Below, piece by piece: positions 31,144-61,717 of a stretch of 64,000 bases of DNA; the first letter of the stretch is position 1; each line of letters starts with the position of its first letter. The position numbers were made by a program, and so were the translations under genes. This DNA is from a virus (Duplodnaviria > Heunggongvirae > Uroviricota > Caudoviricetes). The notes under the pieces are model-generated. The model saw only the letters and a list, made by a program, of their open reading frames with translations. It had not been told where the DNA came from and ran no database searches. Location: the IMG/VR virus record IMGVR_UViG_3300026382_000007; one strand, given 5' to 3'.

Positions 31144-31428
31144 ATGCTAAAAGACATTGTATCTAAAATTGACGAGGGTCGCACTCCTCCTGGTATGGAA
31201 CTTCAAAAGAATCAAATTCAGTTCAGGTCTGACACTATGTCAACTGTTCAAGGAGTTCTGAGTGCTTGTAAAGAACTTGAGAAAATCGCTAAAAAGGCTA
31301 AAAAAAATGACCATGGTTACCCTGAAGATGATTTCGAGATGGGGCACTGGCTTACTATTATCGCTAAATCTGCAAACACTGCTAATAGTCAAATCCAAAT
31401 GGTTTCAACTGTTCCAGGATCAAGATAA
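31144..31428 (+). CDS. hypothetical protein
   Basis: 94 aa, RBS aaaggaattactATG. Confidence 0.4.
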   Translation: MLKDIVSKIDEGRTPPGMELQKNQIQFRSDTMSTVQGVLSACKELEKIAKKAKKNDHGYPEDDFEMGHWLTIIAKSANTANSQIQMVSTVPGSR

Positions 31429-32672
31429 TGGGTGGTAATGTAACAGCGACAAATAAAAAGTCGGGCATCGAAACTCGTGCTGCAAAGATTCCTATTCGTA
31501 AAATCGGTCGTAAAGAGTTTACTACAAAGTTCATTCAGGTTTTCAAGAAACTGAATAAGATCTTCAAAAAAGCAAACGGTTTCCCTCTTTGGTCTAATGA
31601 AAAGAATCTTGAAAATGGGCTTCAATTTAACGGTTCAACATCATATATCTTTGACCAGACTTTATCTGACAAAGAAATCACAGATGTGAAAGAATCAGCT
31701 GGTGACCTTGATATCATCGTTCCGGAGGGCTTCAAAGCGGAAGTTTGGGAAATGCTTGATAAACTAGAGGGTGTTGAAATAATTCCTGGTTGTGTTTACA
31801 TGGGTTCTAACAAACATTCTGTAGAATCCATCGGTGAACAAATCAACTGTGTGTTCTTAACTGATTTTGATGGTCTTTCTGTACCAGCACAAGTTGACTT
31901 TGAGTTTTTACCTATGGAAAAAGACGGCTCAACTCCTACAGAGTGGGCAAAGTTCTCTCATAGTTCGAGCTTCGAAGATGCGAAAGCTGGTGTGAAAGCA
32001 GTTCACCACAAATATCTAATTCAAGCTTTGGTTGGTGGTGCTAGTATCCGTGATGATGTTGTTATCGTAACGGCAGCAGCAAATAATGACAATTATGCTT
32101 CTAAGGTTCAAGACCAAAAAGGTCAGCTCCCAAGAATGCTTAAATTCTCAGTTGGTCGTGGTATTGGTCGTGCTTATGAATTAATGCATGGTGAAGACGG
32201 ACTTCCTCTTAAATTAGATGGGAAAGATGTTTATCGTGTTGTTAAGCCTGCAGATAGAAGCTATGAAACAACTGTAAAAGAGATTTATAAGCTTGCATTT
32301 GGTCGCCTTGAAGACAATCCTGATGATATTAAAAAGTTCAACTCATTTGTTGGTATTCTTGATTTAATGCAAAGACACCTTAACAAAAAGCAGATTGATG
32401 CTACTCACAAGAGATATGTTGAAAAACTATGGGCAACAGCTACTAATAAATCTAAAAAGGTTTATTCAGTCGGTCAATCACTTGAAAGAGGCGATGCCGA
32501 GGGTGACTACAATGTAAAAATTAGTGGTTACAACAAATTCGTAAAAGAATTTGGTTTAAAGCCTGACAAGAAAACTATTGAAAACTATTACAAGCACTTC
32601 GAAGTTAAAAATGTCAAAGAATCTATGATTCGTGAAGCAATCGACAAGGTTGCTTCACGAGAAGAGATTTAA
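31428..32672 (+). CDS. hypothetical protein; weak HAD-like DxDG motif (VFLTDFDGLS) suggests possible phosphatase
   Basis: 414-aa ORF; motif resemblance to T4 Pnk phosphatase motif I VIFDVDGTL is weak. Confidence 0.25.
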   Translation: MGGNVTATNKKSGIETRAAKIPIRKIGRKEFTTKFIQVFKKLNKIFKKANGFPLWSNEKNLENGLQFNGSTSYIFDQTLSDKEITDVKESAGDLDIIVPEGFKAEVWEMLDKLEGVEIIPGCVYMGSNKHSVESIGEQINCVFLTDFDGLSVPAQVDFEFLPMEKDGSTPTEWAKFSHSSSFEDAKAGVKAVHHKYLIQALVGGASIRDDVVIVTAAANNDNYASKVQDQKGQLPRMLKFSVGRGIGRAYELMHGEDGLPLKLDGKDVYRVVKPADRSYETTVKEIYKLAFGRLEDNPDDIKKFNSFVGILDLMQRHLNKKQIDATHKRYVEKLWATATNKSKKVYSVGQSLERGDAEGDYNVKISGYNKFVKEFGLKPDKKTIENYYKHFEVKNVKESMIREAIDKVASREEI

Positions 32673-32719
32673 CTCGTGTGTGAACAAGATGGGAATATAT
32701 TTGAAGAAAGGGGTAATAT

Positions 32720-33610
32720 ATGATTAGAGAAGCACTTACAATCGTACTAAACGAAAATGTAAATCCGCAAATTCTTAAACTTGCGGAAGTTCAGGGGGCT
32801 GATTCTACGGATAAGCTTCGGGCACTTGTTGCTCAAGAGTACGGAATTCATAATCCTCCTCCGAAGATGAGCTCAAATGTTAAGACTGTTCCTCAGTTGA
32901 TCAAGGCTTATGAAAAACTTCTTAAGACCCATAATGCTGAAATGAAGATACTTTTTGACATTGTACCGAAAGGTGTTGGTCGTGCTGAAGTTATGCTTGC
33001 ATTTGTTCATGATGAAATCTCTATTGGAGGTGGGTCACAGAATTATGATGTGGATTACGGTTCAATTCAACTTGAAGTGAAAGAAGTGAAGATTTCTGGT
33101 GATTACGGTGGAAACTTTAGACTTGGTGTCGACAGTACACACTATTTGAAACGAGCTTATGATGATATTGCAGCACTTTATGGTGTGGCGAGATATTACA
33201 TACCTGAGATCGACAATGATGATTTTGCTAACAATGTTTACAAAAAGGGCGGTATCGCACTTGCTCAACTCAGAAAATGGGTTATGCCTAAGAAAATTGA
33301 AGTTAAAGATGTTGAGCTCAAAGTTCTTTCAGACGGTTACATGTTTCATGATGGGGCAGTCATTGGTAATATATCTGACAAATCACTTCTTGGTAAGATC
33401 GCTGATCTTTTCAAAGTGCCGAAAAAGGTGAAATCATTTAGTGAAATTGAGGATGAACTTGAAAGTGGTCTTAGTGGCCATGAAATGAAGTATTTATTCT
33501 TCGGAGACCTTAAAAAAGGTATCCCGATGTACTACAAAGATCGCATAAAAGATATTCGTATCGAATCAGCGACTGGGCACAAAGTCAAGTTCCAGATTAA
33601 ATTAAAATAG
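32720..33610 (+). CDS. hypothetical protein
   Basis: 296-aa ORF, RBS gaaaggggtaatatATG. Confidence 0.35.
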   Translation: MIREALTIVLNENVNPQILKLAEVQGADSTDKLRALVAQEYGIHNPPPKMSSNVKTVPQLIKAYEKLLKTHNAEMKILFDIVPKGVGRAEVMLAFVHDEISIGGGSQNYDVDYGSIQLEVKEVKISGDYGGNFRLGVDSTHYLKRAYDDIAALYGVARYYIPEIDNDDFANNVYKKGGIALAQLRKWVMPKKIEVKDVELKVLSDGYMFHDGAVIGNISDKSLLGKIADLFKVPKKVKSFSEIEDELESGLSGHEMKYLFFGDLKKGIPMYYKDRIKDIRIESATGHKVKFQIKLK

Positions 33611-33618
33611 GAGCTTAG

Positions 33619-35202
33619 ATGATTAATGAAGCAGTAAGAACAGTTGTATCAGAAGCTGAGTATCTTAACATCAGTATCAAAAATGTCGATAAAGCAGTTA
33701 AGGAGAAGGATCTAGCATCACTTCTTGACCAAAATACGATTGTTTATGGTAAATACGATGGGACAAAACTGTCTATCTTAAGAACTGATAAGCCTTGGAA
33801 CGAAGCTAAATGGTGGGAAATGTTCATTGTTGGATATAAAGGAAATATACTTTATGGTACAGAGTATGCTGACTCAACTGATGATCAGGCTGAACTGGAC
33901 AAAACTATTGGTGTGTCTCAGTATAAAGCTATTTTCAAACACATTAGTGAATATTACAAAGGCTGGAAAAGTCTTCCAATGAAAACTGAGTTTTTCTTTG
34001 AATTCTTGATGAACAAGCCGACTTTGACTCGCTCATACACTAAACTTCGTGATCTTGTCCTTATAGGATATGCACCAGTTTCTAGTTACAAAGAGAATCA
34101 TGGTAAGATTTCAACAAGTCCTCAAGGGTTCATCATGGATGGTCGCGAGGAGTTTGCAAAAACATTCAAAGTGAATTTACCAGAAGAGTTATTCAATGGT
34201 AAACTTAGAAATCTCCCAAATGGGCTTAATAAACGAGCGAATGATTTTTTCGGTGATTATAAAGACCTACTTTCAAAATCTACATCGGATGCTGAATACT
34301 GGAACTTCTGTAAGTTATTTTTCCTTGATATTCCGTCTTTATACGGTTCACCAAAAGAAGAGGGTGTTGTTATTCATCTTGAAAAAGATATCGGTGGTGC
34401 AAATATCCTAAAGATAATGCAAGCTGATCAATATGACAAAGCACTTCGTGGTGAGAAAAAGGCTCAATTCAAGATGGAATGGGAAGACGAAGACAACTAC
34501 TGGGTACAAATTCGTGCGAAAGCCGAAGAGGTTATCGGGATGGTTGATTACACTCAACCTCTATATAGAACTCTTAAATTAGTTTCAAAGATTGTTTTCA
34601 AAGACTGGAAAGTCGATGTCGTTCATACAAAGAAAACTGACCTGAATATCAAGGATGATTTACAACTTACTGTGAAAAGTATGCTTGTTCGATTAATGCC
34701 TGGAAACAATGGTGCTATGGTAGTTGGTAAATTCCGTGTGTTCACAAACGGGCACAAAAAGATGTTTGACAAGGCTCTTAAAACTAACGATGTCCTTGTG
34801 GTTGCACTCGTTTCCAATAAAGAGACAAAAGCTACTTTAAAGCTTCGTCGCTCAATGATTGAAATGAACTATCCACAAGTAGAGATCATTGAAACTACTT
34901 CAGGGAATTTACTGACTATGTTGAATAAGACTTCGACAAACATCAATACAATCTTTGCTGGTACAGATCGTGTCAAAGCTTACAAAGAACAGATGAAAAG
35001 AAATCTTGATGTTGGTATTGAAGAAATTGAAAGAACTGACGAAGACGAAAGTGCTTCTAAGGTTATCTCAAAACTTAAAGACATTAAATACTTTAAGAAG
35101 AATGTACCAAAGGGGACTCAGAAGTTTTACAATGAACTTCTAAGTGTCTATATTCAAAATGAAAGTGTTAGGGAGAATCTCATGACTGAGTGGGAAAAAT
35201 GA
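33619..35202 (+). CDS. RNA ligase (KxDG nucleotidyltransferase) fused to C-terminal HxGH-type adenylyl/cytidylyltransferase domain
   Basis: motif I YGKYDGTK, motif IV EGVVIH, motif V LKIMQ in N-half; C-half G-K-F-R-V-F-T-N-G-H resembles NadD/NMNAT GxFxxxHxGH. Confidence 0.55.
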   Translation: MINEAVRTVVSEAEYLNISIKNVDKAVKEKDLASLLDQNTIVYGKYDGTKLSILRTDKPWNEAKWWEMFIVGYKGNILYGTEYADSTDDQAELDKTIGVSQYKAIFKHISEYYKGWKSLPMKTEFFFEFLMNKPTLTRSYTKLRDLVLIGYAPVSSYKENHGKISTSPQGFIMDGREEFAKTFKVNLPEELFNGKLRNLPNGLNKRANDFFGDYKDLLSKSTSDAEYWNFCKLFFLDIPSLYGSPKEEGVVIHLEKDIGGANILKIMQADQYDKALRGEKKAQFKMEWEDEDNYWVQIRAKAEEVIGMVDYTQPLYRTLKLVSKIVFKDWKVDVVHTKKTDLNIKDDLQLTVKSMLVRLMPGNNGAMVVGKFRVFTNGHKKMFDKALKTNDVLVVALVSNKETKATLKLRRSMIEMNYPQVEIIETTSGNLLTMLNKTSTNINTIFAGTDRVKAYKEQMKRNLDVGIEEIERTDEDESASKVISKLKDIKYFKKNVPKGTQKFYNELLSVYIQNESVRENLMTEWEK

Positions 35203-35417
35203 TGTTTAAGGAATTAATTAAGGTTATCGAGTCAAAAAAGCCTCGTTCAGTGCCTATGATTTTTGAACTTATTGTAGACGGCTCAAAAGTAGCGACGAAT
35301 TCTAATGCTGATGTTATTGGACGAAAGGCGAAAGCCAAGAAGTACATCGGGAAAGAAGTGAAAATCATGAGATCATCAGATTCTGGGTACGAAGATATCA
35401 CAGACATGTTCTTATAG
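35199..35417 (+). CDS. hypothetical small protein
   Basis: 72 aa; start GTG35190/ATG35199. Confidence 0.3.
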   Translation: MMFKELIKVIESKKPRSVPMIFELIVDGSKVATNSNADVIGRKAKAKKYIGKEVKIMRSSDSGYEDITDMFL

Positions 35418-35456
35418 GAGAAATCGTGAAAGTTAATCAATCAGGAAAGGAGCTCG

Positions 35457-35663
35457 GTGATGAGTAAATTTGTTCTAGCAGAGGCGAACTCGCCAGAAGT
35501 AGATGTATCAGAGGGACTTTCAGATGTGTCATTAGCACTAATGGCAGTTCAAAAGACGGCAAAGAGACTTCCGGACGGGAAGAGACTTGAAAAGATAATC
35601 AGTAACATGATTTCTAACATTGATGAAGAGTCAATGTATGTAGCAAAAGGGGAATATAGCTAA
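35457..35663 (+). CDS. hypothetical small acidic protein
   Basis: 68 aa; RBS aaaggagctcggtgATG. Confidence 0.35.
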   Translation: MMSKFVLAEANSPEVDVSEGLSDVSLALMAVQKTAKRLPDGKRLEKIISNMISNIDEESMYVAKGEYS

Positions 35664-36022
35664 TGGTAAGACAAATAATTAAGAAAATCACTGAAGTAGA
35701 TACACCTCAAAGCTTCTCAGCGAATGAAGCTAAAATGACAAAACCTCAACTACTTAAAGACATGGAAACATGGTTAAAAGCTTCTGGGTTTGATTTTGAA
35801 GTGAAAGACAACAAAACATTCAGAGCGATCAAGGGCGGGAAGCCAGAGGGTCAAACTGAATTGGTTTTCAAATCTGTAGATATCGCAAAATCCGCTATGT
35901 CAAAACTTGCTACTGCAAAGAAATTTGACGGTGTTGAGACTGCTTGGGGTGGTTTTGTTCTAAGTTTCGTATGGAACCGTGTTAAGAATGAATCCCTTTT
36001 CCGTAAAATCGCGGAACTGTAG
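35663..36022 (+). CDS. hypothetical protein
   Basis: 119 aa, start overlaps upstream stop. Confidence 0.35.
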   Translation: MVRQIIKKITEVDTPQSFSANEAKMTKPQLLKDMETWLKASGFDFEVKDNKTFRAIKGGKPEGQTELVFKSVDIAKSAMSKLATAKKFDGVETAWGGFVLSFVWNRVKNESLFRKIAEL

Positions 36023-36556
36023 ATGAAATTCATATTATCTGAATCTAATATAAAAGATTTGGGTGATTTGGTTGCAGATGATGCATACTTTGTATTTGTC
36101 ATGGGTGCCACGGGGTCAGGTAAAAACTTCATTGTAAGAAAATACTTACCCAAGACTCCTTTGGTGGATATAGACAAATTCATGGCTGAACTCGCGGCAA
36201 ATGACCCTGATGGGAGAAATGAACGAAAATTCATTTCTAAGTCGGTCCATATGGCAAAAAAGGCACTTGATAAATATTTCAACAAAATGCAATCTGTAAT
36301 TCAGACTGGAACTGGTGGGAATTTAAAGGGGCTTGAAAATAAGCTTAAGCTTGCAAAATCAAAGGGTTTGAAAACTGCTCTCATCTTAGTTGATACTGAC
36401 ATTGAAAGGGCTAAAAAGCGAAATCAATCCCGTGCTGACTCTGGCGAGCAAAGGCTTGTACCTCAGTGGAAAGTGGATGTTTCGTATGAAAAATCTGCTG
36501 AAAATTACAAAATTCTTAAGGACACTGTGGACTTCGCGGTTAAGGTTAAAAACTAA
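36023..36556 (+). CDS. P-loop kinase (polynucleotide 5'-kinase-like or dNMP kinase)
   Basis: Walker A VMGATGSGKN near N-terminus, D-rich segment VDIDKF downstream, 177 aa. Confidence 0.45.
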   Translation: MKFILSESNIKDLGDLVADDAYFVFVMGATGSGKNFIVRKYLPKTPLVDIDKFMAELAANDPDGRNERKFISKSVHMAKKALDKYFNKMQSVIQTGTGGNLKGLENKLKLAKSKGLKTALILVDTDIERAKKRNQSRADSGEQRLVPQWKVDVSYEKSAENYKILKDTVDFAVKVKN

Positions 36557-37121: not shown

Positions 37122-38525
37122 ATGACACCATATGAAATCATCGAGCTTCTAAGAAGCACTTCAGGAATCAATGACAAGAGGACTATACTTAGTTCACATA
37201 AAGATAATAAAGACTTTCAGCGAGTGCTCACATATGCTCTAGACCCTCGTATTACATTCGGGATTAAAAAGCTTCCTAAATATGATTACACGGCACTAGA
37301 TTTGACACTGAATGAGGCAATTACTGAATTAATTGCACTTGAAACTCGCGAAGTTACTGGGAATGCAGCTTCTGATCTTCTTCAGGGTATTCTTGAAACT
37401 ACTTCTGAAGAAGATGCTCAGGTTATTAAGTGGATCATCGCCAAAGATTTCAAAGCTGGATTTGGCATTTCGTTGATTAATGATGAAATGGCTCCATTTA
37501 GTGTATATGAAGTTCCTTACATGGGAGCTACGAGCTACTCGCCAAAAAGAGTTGCAACTATCATGAAACAAGGGCAAGCATTTTCTGAGGTGAAAATGGA
37601 TGGTCGTTATCTAAATTGTATCGTAAACAACGGTGATGTTTTCATGGAGTCAAGAGGTGGTAAGCCAAATCCATTAATGGGTTGTCTTGAGAAAGAAGCA
37701 AGTGCACTTGCATTTGAGCTTGGATATTCGCAAGTTGCTATCAACGGTGAGCTAATGTTCAAAGGCGAAAAAGACCGTTACATTGCAAATGGTATTATCA
37801 GCTCATTTGTGTCAATGGCTCAAAAAGACTTTGACGGTGTTGATATTAGTAAGGAAATTACTAAGTTCGAAAAAAGATGGGAAATGACTCTTGATGAAGC
37901 GAAATCAAGAATCGCATTAGTGGTTTGGGATTATATCCCTCTTGAAAACTACAAGGAGCAAGTCTGGTCTAAGCCTCGTTTTGAGAGACTTGCTCGCCTT
38001 AAAAATGCTTGTGAATCAACTAACTCATTTGAACTTGTTGAATACAAAGTTGTTCATACTGAGGCTGAAGCAATTAGTCACTTCCAAGAGATGCTTGCTC
38101 GTGGCGAAGAGGGGACTATCCTGAAAGCTTGGGACGGTATTTGGAAAGACGGAAAACCTACATTTCAATGTAAAATGAAAGTTGAAATGAATGTTGACTT
38201 GAGAATTGTTGGGTTCAATTACGGAACTCCAGGAACAAAAAATGAAAAAGTGATTTCAAGCTTAGATGTTGAGTCAATGTGTGGCGGTTTAGCTACTTCA
38301 CCTGGAGGAATTAATGAAGCTGATATGCAATTTATTACTGATAATATGGACTCATTAATGGGTACAATTGTTGAAGTAAAATCTTGCGGTATTTCTCAAG
38401 ATTCAACTGGAGCTTATGCTTTACTTCATCCTGTTTTCATAAAACTTCGTGATGATAAAAACACTGGTGATGATTTGAAAACAATCATCGAAATTGATAA
38501 TATGAAAAAGGGGCTTACGAAGTAA
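37122..38525 (+). CDS. ATP-dependent DNA ligase
   Basis: KxDG motif EVKMDGRYL; 467 aa comparable to T4 DNA ligase. Confidence 0.75.
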   Translation: MTPYEIIELLRSTSGINDKRTILSSHKDNKDFQRVLTYALDPRITFGIKKLPKYDYTALDLTLNEAITELIALETREVTGNAASDLLQGILETTSEEDAQVIKWIIAKDFKAGFGISLINDEMAPFSVYEVPYMGATSYSPKRVATIMKQGQAFSEVKMDGRYLNCIVNNGDVFMESRGGKPNPLMGCLEKEASALAFELGYSQVAINGELMFKGEKDRYIANGIISSFVSMAQKDFDGVDISKEITKFEKRWEMTLDEAKSRIALVVWDYIPLENYKEQVWSKPRFERLARLKNACESTNSFELVEYKVVHTEAEAISHFQEMLARGEEGTILKAWDGIWKDGKPTFQCKMKVEMNVDLRIVGFNYGTPGTKNEKVISSLDVESMCGGLATSPGGINEADMQFITDNMDSLMGTIVEVKSCGISQDSTGAYALLHPVFIKLRDDKNTGDDLKTIIEIDNMKKGLTK

Positions 38526-38686: not shown

Positions 38687-39025
38687 ATGGGAATTGAACT
38701 AATCTGGATGCCACTGGCGAAAGCCGGAATCATCTTTTTGTTGCTGGGTCTTATGACTTGGCTGTTAAGACGAAAGAACTATAAACTTGGAGGTGCTGTT
38801 GCAGTAATTCTAGCTATTATGGTGATTTTCGCTCCAATAAAGCTTACTAATAAAACGGTTCATGTGAAACAGCAAACTCAGCAAATTGCTAAGGTGATGA
38901 CGGCTGAAATACCTGAGAGGGTAGAAAGAACAAAAAGATCACTTGACGGTGCCATGGCAAAGTTCAAAGTGATCCGTGAAGAATCACAAAAAGTAATCAA
39001 TGATGAACTCAACAAAAGTAAATAA
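38687..39025 (+). CDS. small membrane protein (2 TM)
   Basis: preceded by conserved promoter; hydrophobic helices. Confidence 0.4.
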   Translation: MGIELIWMPLAKAGIIFLLLGLMTWLLRRKNYKLGGAVAVILAIMVIFAPIKLTNKTVHVKQQTQQIAKVMTAEIPERVERTKRSLDGAMAKFKVIREESQKVINDELNKSK

Positions 39026-39203
39026 GGGATTTACTCTCATGGAGCTCGTATTCATAATTATTATTTTTGGAATTTTGTCTGCTGTGGCACTTCCTAAAAT
39101 GAAACAAGCTGAACTCGATAAACAAAAAAAGGTACAGACTGAGAAATTGAAACAGTCTGGAACAACTTTCGGGAGTGGTGGAAGCACCTCTTTCTCAAAC
39201 TAA
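39003..39203 (+). CDS. type IV prepilin/pseudopilin-like protein (66 aa)
   Basis: class III signal: short basic leader ..KVNKG then FTLMELVFIIIIFGILSAVALP with Glu at +5. Confidence 0.55.
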   Translation: MNSTKVNKGFTLMELVFIIIIFGILSAVALPKMKQAELDKQKKVQTEKLKQSGTTFGSGGSTSFSN

Positions 39204-39217
39204 AATAAGGCTACACA

Positions 39218-40090
39218 ATGAAAAAAATGATTAAATCGGCGATCTTCGCTACACTTATGGGATTTATGGCACTAACAACAACTGGTTGTTCTGAAAAGGT
39301 TGAACCTGCACACAAGGGTATCAAATTAACATCAAGTGGATATGAAGCTGAAATCTACCCTCCTTCAAGAGTTTATGTGGGTTGGAGAGAAACTCTGATT
39401 CAGATTGAAACACATACATCTGCGGCAAGTGAGCAAATCACAATTCGTACTAAGGATAAAATGAACCTTAATGCTGAAATTAAATTCCGCTTAAGAGTTG
39501 ATGGTGATGATGCCACAATTCGTTCAATGTTCAATGATATCACTCCTGCTGATAATATGGTGACACTGAAATCTGTGTACTTGACATACGGTAAGATGAT
39601 CGTAAACAATGTGACTCGTGGTGTAATTGGTAAGTATGATATTGAAGATGTACAACCAAACTTCAACCGCATTAACAAAGAAATTTATGGTGAAATTCAA
39701 GCGAAGTTCAAAAACATTCCACTAGAAATTAGTGATGTTGCACTTGGAAAACTGGATTATCCTGAAGTAATTGACAAAGCAATTCTTGCTGCGGCACAAA
39801 AAACACTTGAGATTTCAAAGGCTGAGGCTGAAGTTCAAGTTGAGCTTACTAGAATTGAAGGAAAAAAACAAGTTGCGTCTGCGAAGTATGACATCAAGAT
39901 GTTAGAAGCGAAAAGAATTCGTGACTATAACATTATGATTGGGAAGGGTATTACACCAGCATTGCTTAAGCTTCGTGAGTTAGAAGTTCAAGAAACTATG
40001 GCTGAAAATATCTCAAAAGGTGACCAGATTTATATCCCATGGGGAGCAATGGGTTCAACCGGAGTTAGCAACAGAGTGTTCGGAAAGTAA
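39218..40090 (+). CDS. SPFH/band-7 (HflC/prohibitin-like) domain lipoprotein
   Basis: lipobox LTTTGC; central segment resembles SPFH domain followed by coiled-coil. Confidence 0.5.
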   Translation: MKKMIKSAIFATLMGFMALTTTGCSEKVEPAHKGIKLTSSGYEAEIYPPSRVYVGWRETLIQIETHTSAASEQITIRTKDKMNLNAEIKFRLRVDGDDATIRSMFNDITPADNMVTLKSVYLTYGKMIVNNVTRGVIGKYDIEDVQPNFNRINKEIYGEIQAKFKNIPLEISDVALGKLDYPEVIDKAILAAAQKTLEISKAEAEVQVELTRIEGKKQVASAKYDIKMLEAKRIRDYNIMIGKGITPALLKLRELEVQETMAENISKGDQIYIPWGAMGSTGVSNRVFGK

Positions 40091-54325: not shown

Positions 54326-55805
54326 AAGGAAACTATAAGAACTTCATTAAGTTCATATCGGCATCCAGGGATAGTGTCTACTGCAAAGTATCGGCATCCG
54401 TGGCTAGTGTTTATGAATTTAATGAAGTGCTTAGTACATAATGTCTGGCTTGGTTGTAGGTTTGCCCTATGTCAACGAAGACAAAGTGGAACGGGATTTC
54501 CGGACGCATATATTCGTAAAGATACTCTCAGTAATGGGACGAAAGGGGGATTGATAATCCTTCGCGGAAGTAATTCCGAACAAGTATGCAAAACAGAAAA
54601 CTCATTAAGACATCATCACGGTGGTGTTCGAATTGAACGATGAAGTACGAACTAAACAGTCTGGCCAACGGTGACACTGTTTGATCCCGCAAGGATCTAG
54701 TACATGCAAAATTCATAAGAAATGACAAGTTTAATCTGTAGTTCATTGGTCCGAGTCGTAACTGGCAAGGGCTTATGTTCAGTCTACATGAAAAAAGTCG
54801 CAAGGCTGAGTATCGTGATGGACGGTGAAAGTAGTGTGTTGCATGAAATCACAAAAGGTGGGAAGCATTCTGAGGCTCAAAAGGCTTTGGAACTTCTGAG
54901 GGAGCCCATCTTTATCAATCCGTAATAGCTTAAAGATAAGCATTTGTATTTGGCACAAAAGATTCAGGGTCATACCTGATTACTAATAAAAAACGCAAAG
55001 TCTCCCTCACCGTCACTTGAAAGTGGCTTAAGTCTACACCCATAATGTGGGAATGAAGACATGTTGATGCTCGCAAGGCGGATATATGTTTAGTGGAAAG
55101 CAAAGTTATCCGGCTCGCACTGGAGAATGGCTCGCAAGGTCAGACTGAGTAGAACATTAGAGTAGAGTGACGGGATGCAAGAAAAGCTACTTGTTGGCGA
55201 AAGCCTAAACAAAAGCAGTCATTGGAAATACTCGACCGAAAGGATGAGTGGATAACACTGGGAAACAATAATCCAGTCAAAGGTTCCAGCTGAAAGCTAT
55301 AATCTCAGGCTTCAAAATAAACTTTAAGAGTTTATTGAAATAAATTTGTGTAGCAGTGTTCGACTCCCGACCCACACAGAGTGGGTATTAAACGGGCAAC
55401 TGTTATTGGCACTGGTGTGGGATCACGAGGATTATGAAAAGAATAATCGCAAATTTATTTCAATAAGTTCTTAATTTACTCAAAATGAAGAATGGAATGT
55501 AGGCTTATCAAGTTGAAAGTGTGAGAACTGGATGTGGAATTGGCTTATGAAACTAGAAGAAATTGTTTCTAACGAAAGTACGGATGAATGAATGAATATG
55601 AGATGCAAATTGGGTTTACCAGATAATTCTCTCCGGAACTCTTAGTAGAAAAGAACATCACTGAGGTTGTATATTCAGTGATTGACTTTCAAACTTTTAT
55701 TATATGCTTTGAATGGGTCAGAAGATAATGATGGAGGGTGCGCACCTGAAGTCAGTGATGATATGACAAATCACTTTGAAAATGATAATATTTAAGTTTT
55801 CAGAA

Positions 55806-58567: not shown

Positions 58568-59095
58568 ATGAACAAATTAGAATTCAATGAAGAAAACTTC
58601 GACATGTTAGTCGAGAGGATGCACTTCCTCAGGGAAGAAGTTAAAAAATACAAATATGACCATTTAACTGGTTTAAAACTCAGAAAAGATTTTGATGAGA
58701 AGCTTGATAGGATGTATGAAGCTTATGAATTTGAAGATCAACCATTTGTTTTCATTATGGCAGATGCTGATGGTCTACACAATACTAATAGGACTCTAGG
58801 TTATGATGCTGGTGATGAGCTTCTTATAACTATATCGAGTGAGCTCCGTGCGGAGTTCGGTGATTGTAGAAATGTTGATATATTTCGAATATCCGGCGAC
58901 GAATTTGCGGTTTTGATGACTGGTGATTTGTGTGGCGATGCAATTGACGAAAAAATGAAAAATGTCACAAGTTGCTCATATGCATCAGTCTTCATGGATG
59001 AGACTGAATGTCATCCAAGCCCATCATCTGTTTTTAAGTGTGCTGATAAAAAACTCACTGAAGTAAAGAAAACTAAAAAGCCTGAAAGAATTTAA
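58568..59095 (+). CDS. GGDEF-domain protein (diguanylate-cyclase-like, SGDEF variant)
   Basis: DHLTGL, FVFIMADADGLHNTNRTLGYDAGDELL and RISGDEFAVLM align with PleD-type GGDEF core (DQLTGL / LIDIDFFKKIND..GDEVL / RYGGEEFVVIM). Confidence 0.65.
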   Translation: MNKLEFNEENFDMLVERMHFLREEVKKYKYDHLTGLKLRKDFDEKLDRMYEAYEFEDQPFVFIMADADGLHNTNRTLGYDAGDELLITISSELRAEFGDCRNVDIFRISGDEFAVLMTGDLCGDAIDEKMKNVTSCSYASVFMDETECHPSPSSVFKCADKKLTEVKKTKKPERI

Positions 59096-59858: not shown

Positions 59859-60137
59859 ATGAGACCACTCGGATTTAAAGTAATTATAGAAAAGAAAACG
59901 GTGCAAGCGGAACAAACTTCCGGAACACTTATTATTGAACTTGAAAAGTCAACTTCAGATGCTGACGATGTTAGTGAGGGAACTGTAATTTCAGTAGGAA
60001 ATGAAGTAAACTCTGTGATACATATGATAGATGTTGGTGATACCGTGAAATATGAAAATCATGGTGGGTATGAAGTGAATATTGACGGTAAAGACCTGAT
60101 TATAGCTGATATCAAAAACATTCTGGTGGTATTATAA
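59859..60137 (+). CDS. groES: co-chaperonin GroES/gp31-like
   Basis: 92 aa; MRPLGFKVIIEK..GTVISVG..VGDTVKY pattern parallels GroES; immediately upstream of GroEL with ATGA overlap. Confidence 0.6.
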   Translation: MRPLGFKVIIEKKTVQAEQTSGTLIIELEKSTSDADDVSEGTVISVGNEVNSVIHMIDVGDTVKYENHGGYEVNIDGKDLIIADIKNILVVL

Positions 60138-61717
60138 TGAAAGATATTTTATATGGTTCAGAAGCGAGAGAACTTCTACAAGTTGGTGTTAATAAATTAG
60201 CAAAGGCGGTTGCGGTGACTATGGGACCTCTTGGTCGTAATGTTCTAATTCAGAGGGATAATGAAAATCCATTTCTCACCAAGGACGGTGTTACGGTAGC
60301 TGGTGAAGTTCAATTGAAGAATCCAGTTGAAAATATGGCAGCAAGTCTAGTGAAAGAAGTTTCATCAAATACGGCATTCGAAGCTGGTGATGGTACGACT
60401 ACATCTACTGTTTTAACTGATGCAATTTTCACACACGGTGTTGATGGCATCAAAAGTTCAACGAATATCGTTGAAATGAAAAAGGGTATGGATTCAGCGG
60501 TTCGTGAGGTTGTAAGCTACATTGAAATGAATAGTCGTAAGATTACATCTCATGAAGAAATTAAGCAAATTGCTACTATTTCAGCGAATTCAGATGTTCC
60601 TATGGGTCAGATGATTGCGGATGCTATGGAAGCTGTTGGTGAAGACGGGATTATCAATATCGAAGAAAATAACGGTGTGACGGATGAACTTGCCTCAACT
60701 AAGGGCTTCAAATTCAATCGTGGTTACATGAGTCCAAACTTCGTGACAAATCCTGGTAAAGAAATTGCTGAACATGAAAATCCTTTCATTTTAGTAACTG
60801 ATCAGCGAATTGGCCATTTAGCACACATATTACCTATTCTACAAAAGGTTCAGGAAACTGCAAGACCACTTATAATTTTAGCGGATGACTTTGACCCTGA
60901 AGCACTTAACACAGTTGTAGTGAATAAGGTTCGTGGTATCATGAATATGACGGTTGTAAAGTTACCAGGGTTTGGTGACGGAAAACGAGATCAGATGATT
61001 GACATTGCTATGACTTCAGGTGCTACTATTGTTGGTGCTGAAACTGGTCGTACATTTGAGTCACTGACTTTAGAAGATCTCGGTGAAGCGAAGCGAGTTG
61101 TAGTTGAGAAACAGAATACTATTATCATCAACGGAAAGGGATCAAGTACTGAAGAAATTACTCAGCATAAAAATGCCTTAAAAGTACAAATTGAAGCACT
61201 CCCAGATGGTGATGCTAAAGTGTCTCTTAAATCTAGATTATCCCGCCTTTCAGGTGCAGCAGCAGTTATCAGAGTTGGTGCTCAGACTGAACTTGAAATG
61301 AGAGAAAAGAAAGATAGATTTGATGATGCGGTTGCGGCAACAAAAGCAGCAGTGGCTGAGGGTATTGTTATTGGTGGTGGTTCTGCTTTGGCTAGGGCTT
61401 CACATTTCATCAAAGTGAATAGACAATCAACCAGTTCTGATTTTGACAAAGGGTTCGATGTGATTCTTGAAGCATGTTTTGCTCCTATAGAACAAATTGC
61501 AAATAATGCTGGTCGTAACGGCATTGAGATCGTTGGTGATCTTTCTGAACATGAGAATGAAAACTTCGGTTGGAATGCTCTTACTGATACTTATGAAGAT
61601 TTATTTGAATCAGGTGTCATCGATCCGCTCAAAGTGACTAGAATTGCAATAATCAATGCTTGTAGTTGTGCTTCTACTCTTTTAACTACTGAAACGGTAA
61701 TTTATACAGAAGATTAA
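60137..61717 (+). CDS. groEL: chaperonin GroEL (Cpn60)
   Basis: AVAVTMGPLGRNVLI..FEAGDGTTTSTVLT..equatorial domain motifs, 526 aa. Confidence 0.85.
   Translation: MKDILYGSEARELLQVGVNKLAKAVAVTMGPLGRNVLIQRDNENPFLTKDGVTVAGEVQLKNPVENMAASLVKEVSSNTAFEAGDGTTTSTVLTDAIFTHGVDGIKSSTNIVEMKKGMDSAVREVVSYIEMNSRKITSHEEIKQIATISANSDVPMGQMIADAMEAVGEDGIINIEENNGVTDELASTKGFKFNRGYMSPNFVTNPGKEIAEHENPFILVTDQRIGHLAHILPILQKVQETARPLIILADDFDPEALNTVVVNKVRGIMNMTVVKLPGFGDGKRDQMIDIAMTSGATIVGAETGRTFESLTLEDLGEAKRVVVEKQNTIIINGKGSSTEEITQHKNALKVQIEALPDGDAKVSLKSRLSRLSGAAAVIRVGAQTELEMREKKDRFDDAVAATKAAVAEGIVIGGGSALARASHFIKVNRQSTSSDFDKGFDVILEACFAPIEQIANNAGRNGIEIVGDLSEHENENFGWNALTDTYEDLFESGVIDPLKVTRIAIINACSCASTLLTTETVIYTED

What the first reader, a model, noticed from the sequence alone, without database searches (positions are those of the whole stretch)
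31428..36556. Candidate RNA healing-and-sealing cassette: RNA ligase fused to an HxGH nucleotidyltransferase, a P-loop kinase, and a possible HAD phosphatase
The 33619-35202 protein has ligase motifs I/IV/V (KYDGT, EGVVIH, LKIMQ) in its N-half, like T4 Rnl1. Its C-half carries a G.F..FTNGH signature of NadD/NMNAT-type adenylyltransferases. I do not know this fusion from T4. The 36023-36556 ORF is a small Walker-A kinase that could be a 5'-kinase. The 31428 ORF has a weak DxDG HAD-like motif. Together with the large tRNA array this suggests a defence-countering tRNA or RNA repair system, analogous to T4 Pnk+Rnl1 versus PrrC. An NAD-related role is also possible, such as NAD+ salvage against NAD-depleting defences.
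Basis: partly seen in the sequence, partly recalled or inferred. Interest (0 to 1): 0.6.

Follow-up and report, generated by a model that had tools for sequence, protein, structure and literature searches.

The report
Phage RNA ligase–adenylyltransferase repair module
A large uncultured phage carries a conserved, uncharacterised gene set (a Pol-beta-like nucleotidyltransferase, a nuclease-like protein, an Rnl2-type RNA ligase fused to an NMNAT/PPAT-like adenylyltransferase, and a polynucleotide-kinase-like enzyme) that most likely repairs broken RNA; the supposed phosphatase is really a nucleotidyltransferase.

Summary
The core observation holds. ORF 33619-35202 (527 aa) is a real fusion.

- **Kinase (36023-36556):** most similar to the bacterial Pnkp 5'-kinase domain.
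has an invariant E..D..ExK nuclease-like signature.

The parts are linked in three ways:
- Two natural fusions (ligase-NTase-kinase; NTase-296 domain).
- Adjacency of the 414-aa gene to the fusion gene in at least 10 of 14 divergent loci.
- Co-occurrence in the same Vibrio and Campylobacter phages.

All are annotated hypothetical. No 3'-phosphatase was found, and the substrate of the adenylyltransferase domain is unknown.

Best reading: a nick/gap heal-fill-seal RNA repair module. It is a new variant of a known kind.

The parts
31428..32672 (+). 414-aa Pol-beta-fold nucleotidyltransferase (PHROG 19290, 'unknown function'). Invariant G69-S70, G92-D93-x-D95, D157/E159.
32720..33610 (+). 296-aa protein of unknown family with a PD-(D/E)xK-like signature (E90 ... 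D110 ... E119-V-K121). Probable nuclease; this rests on the motif only.
   Evidence: G87, E90, G104, D110, E119 and K121 are the only invariant columns across 48 distant relatives. No Pfam, PHROG or PDB sequence hit. Homologues flank the ligase-NTase gene in Vibrio phage Va1 and L003. The domain is fused to a homologous HIGH NTase domain in P0188.
33619..35202 (+). 527-aa fusion protein (PHROG 27149, 'unknown function'): Rnl2-like ligase domain, helical linker, HIGH-superfamily adenylyltransferase domain.
33670..34473 (+). Ligase (covalent nucleotidyltransferase) domain, about aa 18-285. Motif I K45-Y-D47-G48, motif III region E124/E128, motif IV E248-G249, motif V K265 (no second Lys).
34480..34695 (+). 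All-helical linker module, about aa 288-359. It lies where T4 Rnl2 has its C-terminal helical domain.
   Evidence: DSSP of the model: helices 288-306, 315-329, 341-359. The Foldseek alignment to full-length Rnl2 2hvr spans 363 columns. Equivalence of the two helical modules was not tested residue by residue.
34702..35154 (+). HIGH/(T/H)xGH Rossmann adenylyltransferase domain, about aa 362-512. G370-K-F-R-V-F-T376-N-G-H379, G448-x-D450-R451, R472, S478-A-S-K481.
36023..36556 (+). 177-aa P-loop kinase, polynucleotide-5'-kinase-like. Walker A G28-x4-G33-K34; D49/D51; R133/R137.
   Evidence: Pfam AAA_33 4.9e-9 and Zeta_toxin 4.7e-7. PHROG polynucleotide kinase 2.2e-5. Profile versus PDB: CthPnkp kinase domain 4GP7/4JST, E 5e-4 over the full length. 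NCBIfam bacter_Pnkp 3.2e-5. 42% identical to the C-terminal domain of the ligase-NTase-kinase fusion P0014. Adjacent in L004, L010 and L016.
35190..36022 (+). Three small ORFs (about 72, 67 and 119 aa) between the fusion gene and the kinase gene. No detectable homologues in related loci; probably not part of the module.
   Evidence: No family hits. No tblastn matches in any related locus.
37122..38525 (+). T4 gp30-like ATP-dependent DNA ligase. A recurrent neighbour, but not shown to belong to the module.
   Evidence: PF01068 8e-14, PHROG 114 1.7e-101. Also downstream of the module in L006 and L010 and about 5 kb away in CP220.

Best explanation
This is a phage-encoded multi-enzyme module for repairing breaks in RNA, either structured RNA such as tRNA or the RNA strand of a duplex.

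Proposed sequence of events:
1. The PNK-like kinase (177 aa) phosphorylates 5'-OH ends.
2. The Pol-beta-fold nucleotidyltransferase (414 aa) extends or refills the 3'-OH end, as RlaP does next to other RNA ligases.
3. Where present, the 296-aa PD-(D/E)xK-like protein trims damaged ends to 3'-OH/5'-P. This would explain why no 3'-phosphatase is needed.
4. The Rnl2-like domain of the 527-aa protein, acting through lysine K45-AMP, seals the resulting 3'-OH/5'-PO4 nick.
5. The fused PPAT/NMNAT-like domain is an active ATP-dependent adenylyltransferase working on a phosphate-bearing acceptor in concert with the ligase. The acceptor is unknown.

Shown here: the folds, the conserved catalytic residues, the fusions and the synteny.

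Inferred: that RNA is the substrate, the order of steps, the trimming role of the 296-aa protein, any role in countering host ribotoxins, and everything about the acceptor of the HIGH domain.
For: - Ligase domain: fold and motifs of nick-sealing RNA ligases.
- HIGH domain: catalytic motifs are invariant, which argues for an active enzyme.
- Kinase: closest to the Pnkp kinase of a known bacterial RNA-repair system.
- 414 aa: complete Pol-beta catalytic triad. RlaP is an experimental precedent for a Pol-beta NTase that works with RNA ligases on damaged RNA (PMC12776372; PMC7824862).
- Fusions: P0014 joins ligase, NTase and kinase. P0188 joins a homologous NTase domain to the 296-family domain.
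- Synteny: the 414-aa gene lies within 3 kb of the fusion gene in the window, Va1, L004, L006, L008, L010, L015, L016, L017 and L019, with a partial copy at the contig end in L003. These include lineages that share no other window genes.
- Co-occurrence: the same 6 Vibrio and 11 Campylobacter phages carry both proteins even where the genes are 65 kb apart.
- Other RNA-repair genes nearby in relatives: a CCA-adding enzyme in Va1, a T4 Rnl1-type ligase in L004, RlaP in L010.
- pTM 0.80 for a three-domain protein predicts fixed inter-domain packing.
- The composition fits the ligase + NTase + kinase 'syntax' of RNA repair systems summarised in PMC7824862.
Against: - No 2',3'-cyclic phosphodiesterase or 3'-phosphatase was found in the window, so canonical healing of ribotoxin-type ends is unexplained.
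- The PD-(D/E)xK assignment is motif-level only, and the 296 family is present in only 3-4 loci.
- The kinase is absent from the cultured Vibrio and Campylobacter phages.
- The 414-aa protein's best structural matches are DNA polymerases of family X. The module also sits among DNA-metabolism genes (EndoVII, DNA ligase, RNR), so a DNA or hybrid substrate is possible.
- Part of the synteny (window, L003, L006, L010) reflects shared ancestry of related phages.
- The tRNA array is 15 kb away.
- The role of the HIGH domain has no direct evidence.
- The key comparative paper on RNA repair systems (Burroughs & Aravind 2016) could not be read.
Confidence: 0.5

Rival explanations
1. DNA or RNA-DNA-hybrid nick/gap repair using a ribonucleotide patch, analogous to bacterial LigD NHEJ or PolX/ligase base-excision repair. 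The PolX-like 414-aa enzyme fills gaps (possibly with rNMPs), the nuclease-like protein processes ends, the kinase phosphorylates 5'-OH DNA ends, and the Rnl2-like ligase seals nicks that have a 3'-ribo-OH.
For: - The ligase's nearest relatives are template-directed nick sealers (PMC1807946).
- The module lies between EndoVII and a T4-type DNA ligase, RNR and dCMP deaminase.
- Related phages carry a separate Rnl1-type ligase for tRNA repair.
Against: - No helix-hairpin-helix or lyase domain was identified.
- All characterised members of the Rnl2/Rnl5/REL clade act on RNA 3'-OH strands.
- RNA-repair genes (CCA-adding enzyme, RlaP, Rnl1) are in the vicinity in relatives.
Confidence: 0.2
2. NAD+ (or related dinucleotide) synthesis, NadR-like. 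The kinase phosphorylates nicotinamide riboside and the HIGH domain is a true NMNAT making NAD+, for example to counter NAD-depleting defences. The ligase domain is either functionally independent or uses the product.
For: - Best named PHROG: NMNAT 2.1e-6.
- Homologue P0043 hits archaeal-type NMNAT NF002243 at 1.9e-7.
- The NTase-kinase domain order in P0014 matches NadR.
- JGI names some homologues 'NMN adenylyltransferase' or 'predicted kinase/NMN adenylyltransferase'.
Against: - All NMNAT and PPAT equivalog scores are about tenfold below their cut-offs.
- The kinase profile finds Pnkp; NadR RNK does not appear among its hits.
- This reading does not explain the deep conservation of the fusion to a ligase with intact catalytic residues, nor the obligate Pol-beta NTase partner.
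- No NadV/Nampt was seen in the window.
Confidence: 0.12
3. RNA end or base modification rather than repair. The HIGH domain would install a nucleotide-cofactor cap (NAD/dpCoA-type) or work through an acyl-adenylate like TmcAL/CitC, acting on phage or host RNA. The ligase and Pol-beta NTase would remodel the same RNA.
For: - The best Pfam hit of the window protein is the CitC C-terminal domain (PF08218, above its cut-off).
- Many conserved basic residues lie in the C-domain.
Against: - The PF08218 match covers only the generic HxGH segment (profile 9-64 of 182).
- NMNAT and PPAT are clearly better structural matches.
- There is no direct evidence for any RNA-modifying activity.
Confidence: 0.08
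4. One reading: a T4 Pnk+Rnl1 analogue with an Rnl1-like ligase, a 5'-kinase and a HAD 3'-phosphatase (ORF 31428).
For: A ligase and a PNK-like kinase are present. A tRNA array is in the window.
Confidence: 0.03

Closest known systems
T4 RNA ligase 2 / Naegleria NgrRnl (Rnl5) / kinetoplastid REL1 (Pfam PF09414)
   Same: - Motif I KxDG lysine, motif IV EG and the first lysine of motif V.
- A helical module follows the catalytic domain, as in Rnl2.
   Different: - No sequence-level match of the window protein itself to PF09414, and hhalign to T4 Rnl2 is not significant.
- Motif V lacks the second lysine in all members.
- A conserved N-terminal 'LxISI' segment is present.
- It is fused to a HIGH adenylyltransferase domain, which none of these enzymes has.
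Baculovirus AcNPV Pnk/Pnl and fungal/plant Trl1 (multidomain ligase-kinase-end-healing enzymes); bacterial Pnkp-Hen1 / Pnkp1-Rnl-Hen1
   Same: An RNA ligase domain is combined with a P-loop polynucleotide kinase in one polypeptide (P0014) or operon. The kinase is most similar to the bacterial Pnkp kinase domain.
   Different: The third module is a PPAT/NMNAT-like adenylyltransferase, not a phosphatase/CPDase (HAD, 2H or metallophosphoesterase). There is no Hen1 methyltransferase. The comparison with AcNPV Pnk/Pnl rests on my own knowledge, not on a tool result.
RlaP (PF10127) + RNA ligase repair systems
   Same: A Pol-beta-superfamily nucleotidyltransferase is consistently encoded next to an RNA ligase. 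RlaP adds 1-2 NMPs to damaged RNA 3' ends (PMC12776372).
   Different: The 414-aa protein has no PF10127 hit, and its structure is closest to family-X polymerases. A separate RlaP gene exists 8 kb away in L010, so the two are not equivalent.
Archaeal/NadM-type NMNAT and bacterial PPAT (CoaD)
   Same: - A minimal (about 150 aa) HIGH Rossmann fold.
- G-[KR]-F-x-x-F-[TH]-x-G-H and ISxT-like motifs.
- rmsd 2.1-2.4 A over 141-142 residues.
   Different: Scores are far below the family cut-offs. It is fused to a ligase. The acceptor substrate is unknown.
Kinetoplastid RNA editing core (endonuclease, Pol-beta-fold TUTase, Rnl2-family ligase)
   Same: The same three enzyme classes (nuclease, Pol-beta-fold NTase, Rnl2-clade ligase) are combined for cut/add/seal chemistry on duplexed RNA.
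   Different: This is analogy only. The nuclease families differ, there are no guide RNAs, and it is a phage context.

Membership tests
ATP-dependent RNA ligase, Rnl2/Rnl5/REL clade (PF09414) | Motif I KxDG with nucleophilic lysine | tested here: met
   K45, D47 and G48 are invariant in 37 homologues.
ATP-dependent RNA ligase, Rnl2/Rnl5/REL clade (PF09414) | Motif IV (EG) and motif III acidic residue | tested here: met
   E248-G249 invariant; E124 and E128 invariant. Assigning E124/E128 to motif III rests on position, not on a residue-level structural alignment.
ATP-dependent RNA ligase, Rnl2/Rnl5/REL clade (PF09414) | Motif V K-x-K (two lysines) | tested here: not met
   All 36 readable members have h-K-h-x-Q. 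The first Lys (K265) is invariant and the second is absent. Active Rnl3 ligases also lack the second Lys (PMC3514331), so this does not exclude ligase activity.
ATP-dependent RNA ligase, Rnl2/Rnl5/REL clade (PF09414) | Adenylyltransferase fold most similar to clade members | tested here: met
   [not shown]
ATP-dependent RNA ligase, Rnl2/Rnl5/REL clade (PF09414) | Pfam model above gathering score | tested here: inconclusive
   The window protein has no hit. Full-length homologues P0032 (35.7 bits) and P0040 (28.7 bits) pass the 27-bit cut-off.
ATP-dependent RNA ligase, Rnl2/Rnl5/REL clade (PF09414) | Ligase-AMP formation and sealing of nicks with an RNA 3'-OH strand | not testable with these tools
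   Needs biochemistry.
T4 Rnl1 family (PF09511) | Rnl1-type fold with a C-terminal tRNA-specificity domain; Pfam match | tested here: not met
   [not shown]
HIGH / (T/H)xGH nucleotidylyltransferase superfamily (PF01467 clan) | (T/H)xGH motif after the first beta-strand | tested here: met
   T376-N-G-H379; H379 invariant, T376 >=90%.
HIGH / (T/H)xGH nucleotidylyltransferase superfamily (PF01467 clan) | C-terminal ISxT-type phosphate-binding motif | tested here: met
   (I/E)-S478-A-(S/T)-K481, with S478 invariant.
HIGH / (T/H)xGH nucleotidylyltransferase superfamily (PF01467 clan) | Rossmann-like fold of the family | tested here: met
   [not shown]
NMNAT (archaeal/NadM/NadR/NadD equivalogs) or PPAT (CoaD) | Score above the NCBIfam equivalog cut-off | tested here: not met
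   TIGR01527 13.6 vs 181; TIGR01510 23.3 vs 103; NF002243 12.9 vs 127.
NMNAT (archaeal/NadM/NadR/NadD equivalogs) or PPAT (CoaD) | Acceptor-binding residues / enzymatic activity | not testable with these tools
   No model coordinates were available for pocket analysis. Needs an assay.
Polynucleotide 5'-kinase (T4 Pnk / bacterial Pnkp kinase domain) | Walker A P-loop, catalytic Asp after the P-loop helix, Arg-rich lid | tested here: met
   G28, G33-K34, D49, D51, R133 and R137 are invariant in 4 diverse homologues. D51 aligns with the Asp of 'VISSD' in CthPnkp; that this Asp is the catalytic one rests on my own knowledge.
Polynucleotide 5'-kinase (T4 Pnk / bacterial Pnkp kinase domain) | Closest characterised relatives are polynucleotide kinases | tested here: inconclusive
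   Best PDB hit is the CthPnkp kinase domain at E 5e-4. Best NCBIfam hit is bacter_Pnkp at 3.2e-5. PHROG PNK 2.2e-5. All are weak, and tblastn finds nothing in phages.
HAD (DxDxT) phosphatase, proposed for ORF 31428 | HAD Rossmannoid fold with an N-terminal DxDxT nucleophile motif | tested here: not met
   No HAD hit in Pfam or NCBIfam. The model is Pol-beta-fold. The D93-x-D95 motif lies at residue 93 within G-D-L-D-I-I-V, preceded by G69-S70 and followed by D157.
Pol-beta-superfamily nucleotidyltransferase (family-X-like) | hG[GS] ... DxD ... third carboxylate, on the Pol-beta palm fold | tested here: met
   [not shown]
RlaP (PF10127) | Pfam PF10127 match | tested here: not met
   No hit. 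A distinct RlaP gene is present in L010 and has no homologue in the window.
PD-(D/E)xK nuclease superfamily (296-aa protein) | E ... (P)D ... (D/E)xK catalytic signature on an alpha-beta-beta-beta-alpha-beta core | tested here: inconclusive
   The signature residues E90, D110, E119 and K121 are the only invariant polar columns in 48 distant relatives. There is no structure model and no profile hit to a known nuclease.

The most novel reading that the evidence does not exclude
The fusion is a new ligation machine in which the two adenylyltransferase chemistries cooperate on one substrate. The PPAT/NMNAT-type domain would directly adenylylate an RNA terminal phosphate (making AppRNA), reverse abortive adenylylation, or supply an adenylyl donor such as NAD+. 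The Rnl2-like domain, whose motif V lacks the second lysine, would then seal the nick. Together with an obligate PolX-like nucleotidyltransferase and a PD-(D/E)xK nuclease, this would form a phosphatase-independent 'trim-refill-seal' RNA repair pathway that lets phages undo anticodon-nuclease or other ribotoxin damage. It would also give a first physiological context for phage Rnl2-type ligases.
Probability: 0.15. Interest if true: 0.85.

Novelty: new variant of a known kind. Interest (0 to 1): 0.6.

Why it matters
Phage and bacterial RNA repair systems follow a ligase + end-healing + nucleotidyltransferase logic, but the in-vivo role of Rnl2-type phage ligases has stayed unclear since their discovery.

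This work defines a conserved, wholly uncharacterised module with two main features:
- An Rnl2-clade ligase is permanently fused to a HIGH-fold adenylyltransferase.
- That fusion protein is genomically tied to a PolX-like nucleotidyltransferase, a PNK-like kinase and a nuclease-like protein.

Both core families are PHROGs of 'unknown function', and every public record calls them 'hypothetical'.

The module occurs in cultured, genetically tractable phages (Vibrio phage Va1 group, Campylobacter firehammerviruses), so its function can be tested directly. If the HIGH domain acts on RNA ends, or couples NAD chemistry to ligation, that would be new enzymology. If the module counters RNA-targeting defences, it would be a new anti-defence strategy that needs no 3'-phosphatase.

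Tried and rejected
- **HAD phosphatase for ORF 31428:** rejected by fold and motif context.
- **Rnl1 affiliation:** rejected.
- **Megablast of the region against phage genomes:** no match.
- **hhalign of family profile A1 against the single T4 Rnl2 sequence:** not significant. The ligase assignment therefore rests on fold searches, the motifs and the PF09414 hits in homologues.
- **Missing second motif V lysine as evidence that the ligase cannot self-adenylylate, so the HIGH domain substitutes:** weakened, because active Rnl3 ligases also lack it (PMC3514331). Kept only as the low-probability novel case.
- **PADLOC:** no hits.
- **Search for a 3'-healing enzyme:** no Metallophos, NT5C or RlaP homologue in the window. 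Small ORFs and longer variants of the partner proteins gave no Pfam hits.
- **296-aa protein:** no hit in PDB sequence searches with two profiles, nor in Pfam or PHROGs.
- **N-terminal 390 aa of P0188:** could not be assigned. The 'EKLSG' motif there is unverified as a ligase motif.
- **Promoter/terminator scan:** uninformative.
- **AFDB50 fold library:** unavailable.
- **Burroughs & Aravind 2016:** not held in the paper library.
- **Genome-contig scan:** only 4 MAG contigs, so the family looks phage-restricted.

Full report
**Context.** The window is part of a roughly 155-kb uncultured phage contig.
- Genes are almost all on the + strand and GC is about 37%.
- There are 26 tRNA genes at 49.9-58.5 kb.
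- T4-like functions are present: EndoVII, gp30-type DNA ligase and RNR.
- No phage in the reference collection is close at the DNA level.

**Observation check, the 527-aa protein (33619-35202).**
- *Distribution.* Homologues are full length in 48 metagenomic proteins, in six Va1-like Vibrio phages and in Campylobacter firehammerviruses (15 records, 11 distinct phages). Identity there is 33-37%, and every record says 'hypothetical'. The PHROG is 'unknown function'.
- *Invariant residues.* In a 37-sequence alignment the N-half keeps K45, D47, G48, K50, E124, E128, E248, G249 and K265. The C-half keeps H379, G448, D450, R451, R472 and S478.
- *Model.* The AlphaFold model is confident (pLDDT 88.7, pTM 0.80).
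- *Family models.* Two homologues pass the Pfam gathering score for PF09414. The C-domain is a superfamily member only: PF01467 and PF08218 are borderline, and the NMNAT and PPAT equivalog models score far below cut-off.
- *Motif V.* Every family member has h-K-h-x-Q where other ligases have K-x-K. Active archaeal Rnl3 ligases show the same loss (PMC3514331), so this is a family trait rather than proof of a defect.

**The kinase (36023-36556).**
- It hits AAA_33 and Zeta_toxin.
- A four-sequence profile finds the C. thermocellum Pnkp kinase domain as its best solved relative, at E 5e-4 over the full length.
- NCBIfam's best hit is bacterial Pnkp.
- The evidence favours a polynucleotide kinase, but it is weak.

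**ORF 31428 (414 aa).**
- The HAD idea fails. The family has more than 310 members, no Pfam domain and a PHROG of unknown function.
- Invariant residues are G69-S70, G92-D93-x-D95 and D157/E159.
- It is therefore a catalytically complete Pol-beta-fold nucleotidyltransferase. Template dependence is unresolved.

- Close homologues are few, but an exhaustive profile search finds 94 relatives.
- Across 48 distant relatives the only invariant columns are G87, E90, G104, D110, E119 and K121. This is an E..D..ExK pattern typical of PD-(D/E)xK nucleases.
- No known family or solved structure matches by sequence, so this remains a motif-level inference.

**Are the parts one system?** Several independent lines say yes.
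- *Fusions.* P0014 (703 aa) is ligase-NTase-kinase, and its kinase part is 42% identical to the window's separate kinase. P0188 (942 aa) has a homologous HIGH NTase domain (hhalign probability 97%, E 1e-10) followed by the 296-family domain.
- *Synteny.* HMM searches of translated loci place the 414-family gene within 3 kb of the ligase-NTase gene in the window, Va1, L004, L006, L008, L010, L015, L016, L017 and L019, with a partial copy at the contig end in L003. The kinase is adjacent in L004, L010 and L016. The 296 family is adjacent in Va1 and L003. L004, L008, L015-L017 and L019 share no other tested window genes, so this is not only inherited gene order.
- *Co-occurrence.* The 414- and 527-aa families occur in the same cultured phages, even where the genes are about 65 kb apart in Campylobacter phages.
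- *Variable parts.* The small ORFs between the fusion and kinase genes are not conserved. The gene between the 414 and 527 homologues also varies, being an unrelated 403-434-aa protein in some lineages.

**Mechanism.** The composition matches the general make-up of RNA repair systems: a ligase, a nucleotidyltransferase, end-modifying enzymes and a scaffold (summarised in PMC7824862). RlaP gives a biochemical precedent for a Pol-beta NTase that restores nucleotides on damaged RNA before ligation (PMC12776372). My best model is therefore a heal-fill-seal RNA break repair module, with these steps:
1. The kinase makes 5'-P ends.
2. The Pol-beta NTase extends or refills the 3'-OH end.
3. The nuclease-like protein may trim blocked 3' ends. 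This would explain why no 3'-phosphatase was found.
4. The Rnl2-like domain seals the nick.

RNA-repair genes lie nearby in relatives: a CCA-adding enzyme in Va1, an Rnl1-type ligase in L004 and RlaP in L010. Related phages also keep a separate Rnl1-type ligase, which implies a substrate different from the classic PrrC-cut tRNA. Given the ligase clade, that substrate is probably a nick in a duplex or stem.

The role of the HIGH domain is the main unknown. Its catalytic motifs are conserved, so it is probably active, but its acceptor could be NMN, phosphopantetheine, another small molecule or an RNA terminal phosphate.

**Rivals.**
- A DNA or hybrid 'ribo-patch' repair role is a serious alternative, given the PolX-like structure and the DNA-metabolism neighbourhood.
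- A NadR-like NAD salvage role fits the NMNAT-like fold and the NTase-kinase order. It does not explain the conserved ligase fusion or the Pol-beta partner, and the kinase looks PNK-like rather than RNK-like.
- RNA capping or modification is possible but unsupported.

**Novelty.** I found no description of this fusion or module in the accessible literature, and all database labels are 'hypothetical' or 'unknown function'. The most relevant comparative paper could not be read, so prior mention cannot be ruled out. I classify it as a new variant of a known kind (RNA healing-and-sealing systems). It has an unusual adenylyltransferase fusion and apparently no phosphatase.

Noticed in passing
window 54853-55311 (+): A full-length GOLLD RNA (Rfam RF02032, 224 bits versus gathering score 150, E 4e-62) sits inside the tRNA array. 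A weak tRNA-like hit is embedded in it at 54919-54987.
   Followed up: no
window 45013-45837 (-): A flagellin gene (Flagellin_N 4.9e-40, Flagellin_C 7e-15), the only convincing minus-strand gene seen in the window. A flagellin and a FlaG-like gene are also on the related phage contig L006 (1-957), so phage-encoded flagellin recurs in this lineage.
   Followed up: partly
window 58568-59095 (+) and 60137-61717 (+): A GGDEF diguanylate-cyclase-domain protein (9.7e-17) lies directly after the tRNA array, followed by a GroEL-type chaperonin (2.7e-68).
   Followed up: no
window 38687-40090 (+): Downstream of the DNA ligase there are three genes: a small membrane protein (38687-39025), a 67-aa ORF with a type-IV-pilin-like N-terminus (KGFTLMELVFIIIIFGILSAVALP, 39000-39203), and a Band_7/SPFH protein (39218-40090). 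According to my recollection of the Burroughs & Aravind 2016 abstract (the paper could not be read; PMC7824862 as read here does not mention Band-7), SPFH/Band-7 proteins have been proposed as scaffolds of some RNA repair systems. This adjacency is not conserved in the related loci examined.
   Followed up: partly
window 31428-31450 (N-terminus of the 414-aa protein): The extreme N-terminus M-G2-G3-N4 is invariant in 43 homologues, which is unusual for a protein start. This may indicate a functional or processed N-terminus.
   Followed up: no
L019 5983-8446: In a MAG contig binned as Rickettsiales, the ligase-NTase gene is followed by a second ORF that again matches the HIGH-NTase part of the profile (positions 360-510). 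This may be a duplicated NTase domain or a frameshifted gene.
   Followed up: no
P0188 (942 aa) and P0194 (526 aa), metagenomic proteins: This is a second, more divergent architecture: an unassigned N-terminal region with an 'EKLSG' motif, then a helical region, a HIGH NTase domain and the 296-family domain. P0194 has the helical region and the 296-family domain without the NTase. The N-terminal region could not be assigned to any fold.
   Followed up: partly
L004 1-209 and 2474-2857; L010 19299-20318; L001 254-1600: Other RNA-repair genes lie within 4-10 kb of the module in relatives: a T4 Rnl1-type ligase plus a second small AAA_33 kinase (L004), an RlaP nucleotidyltransferase next to ankyrin-repeat genes (L010), and a CCA-adding enzyme (Vibrio phage Va1).
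   Followed up: partly
L016 555-5052: The family-B DNA polymerase region of this related phage contig carries intein-splicing domain hits. This suggests an intein-containing or split polymerase.
   Followed up: no
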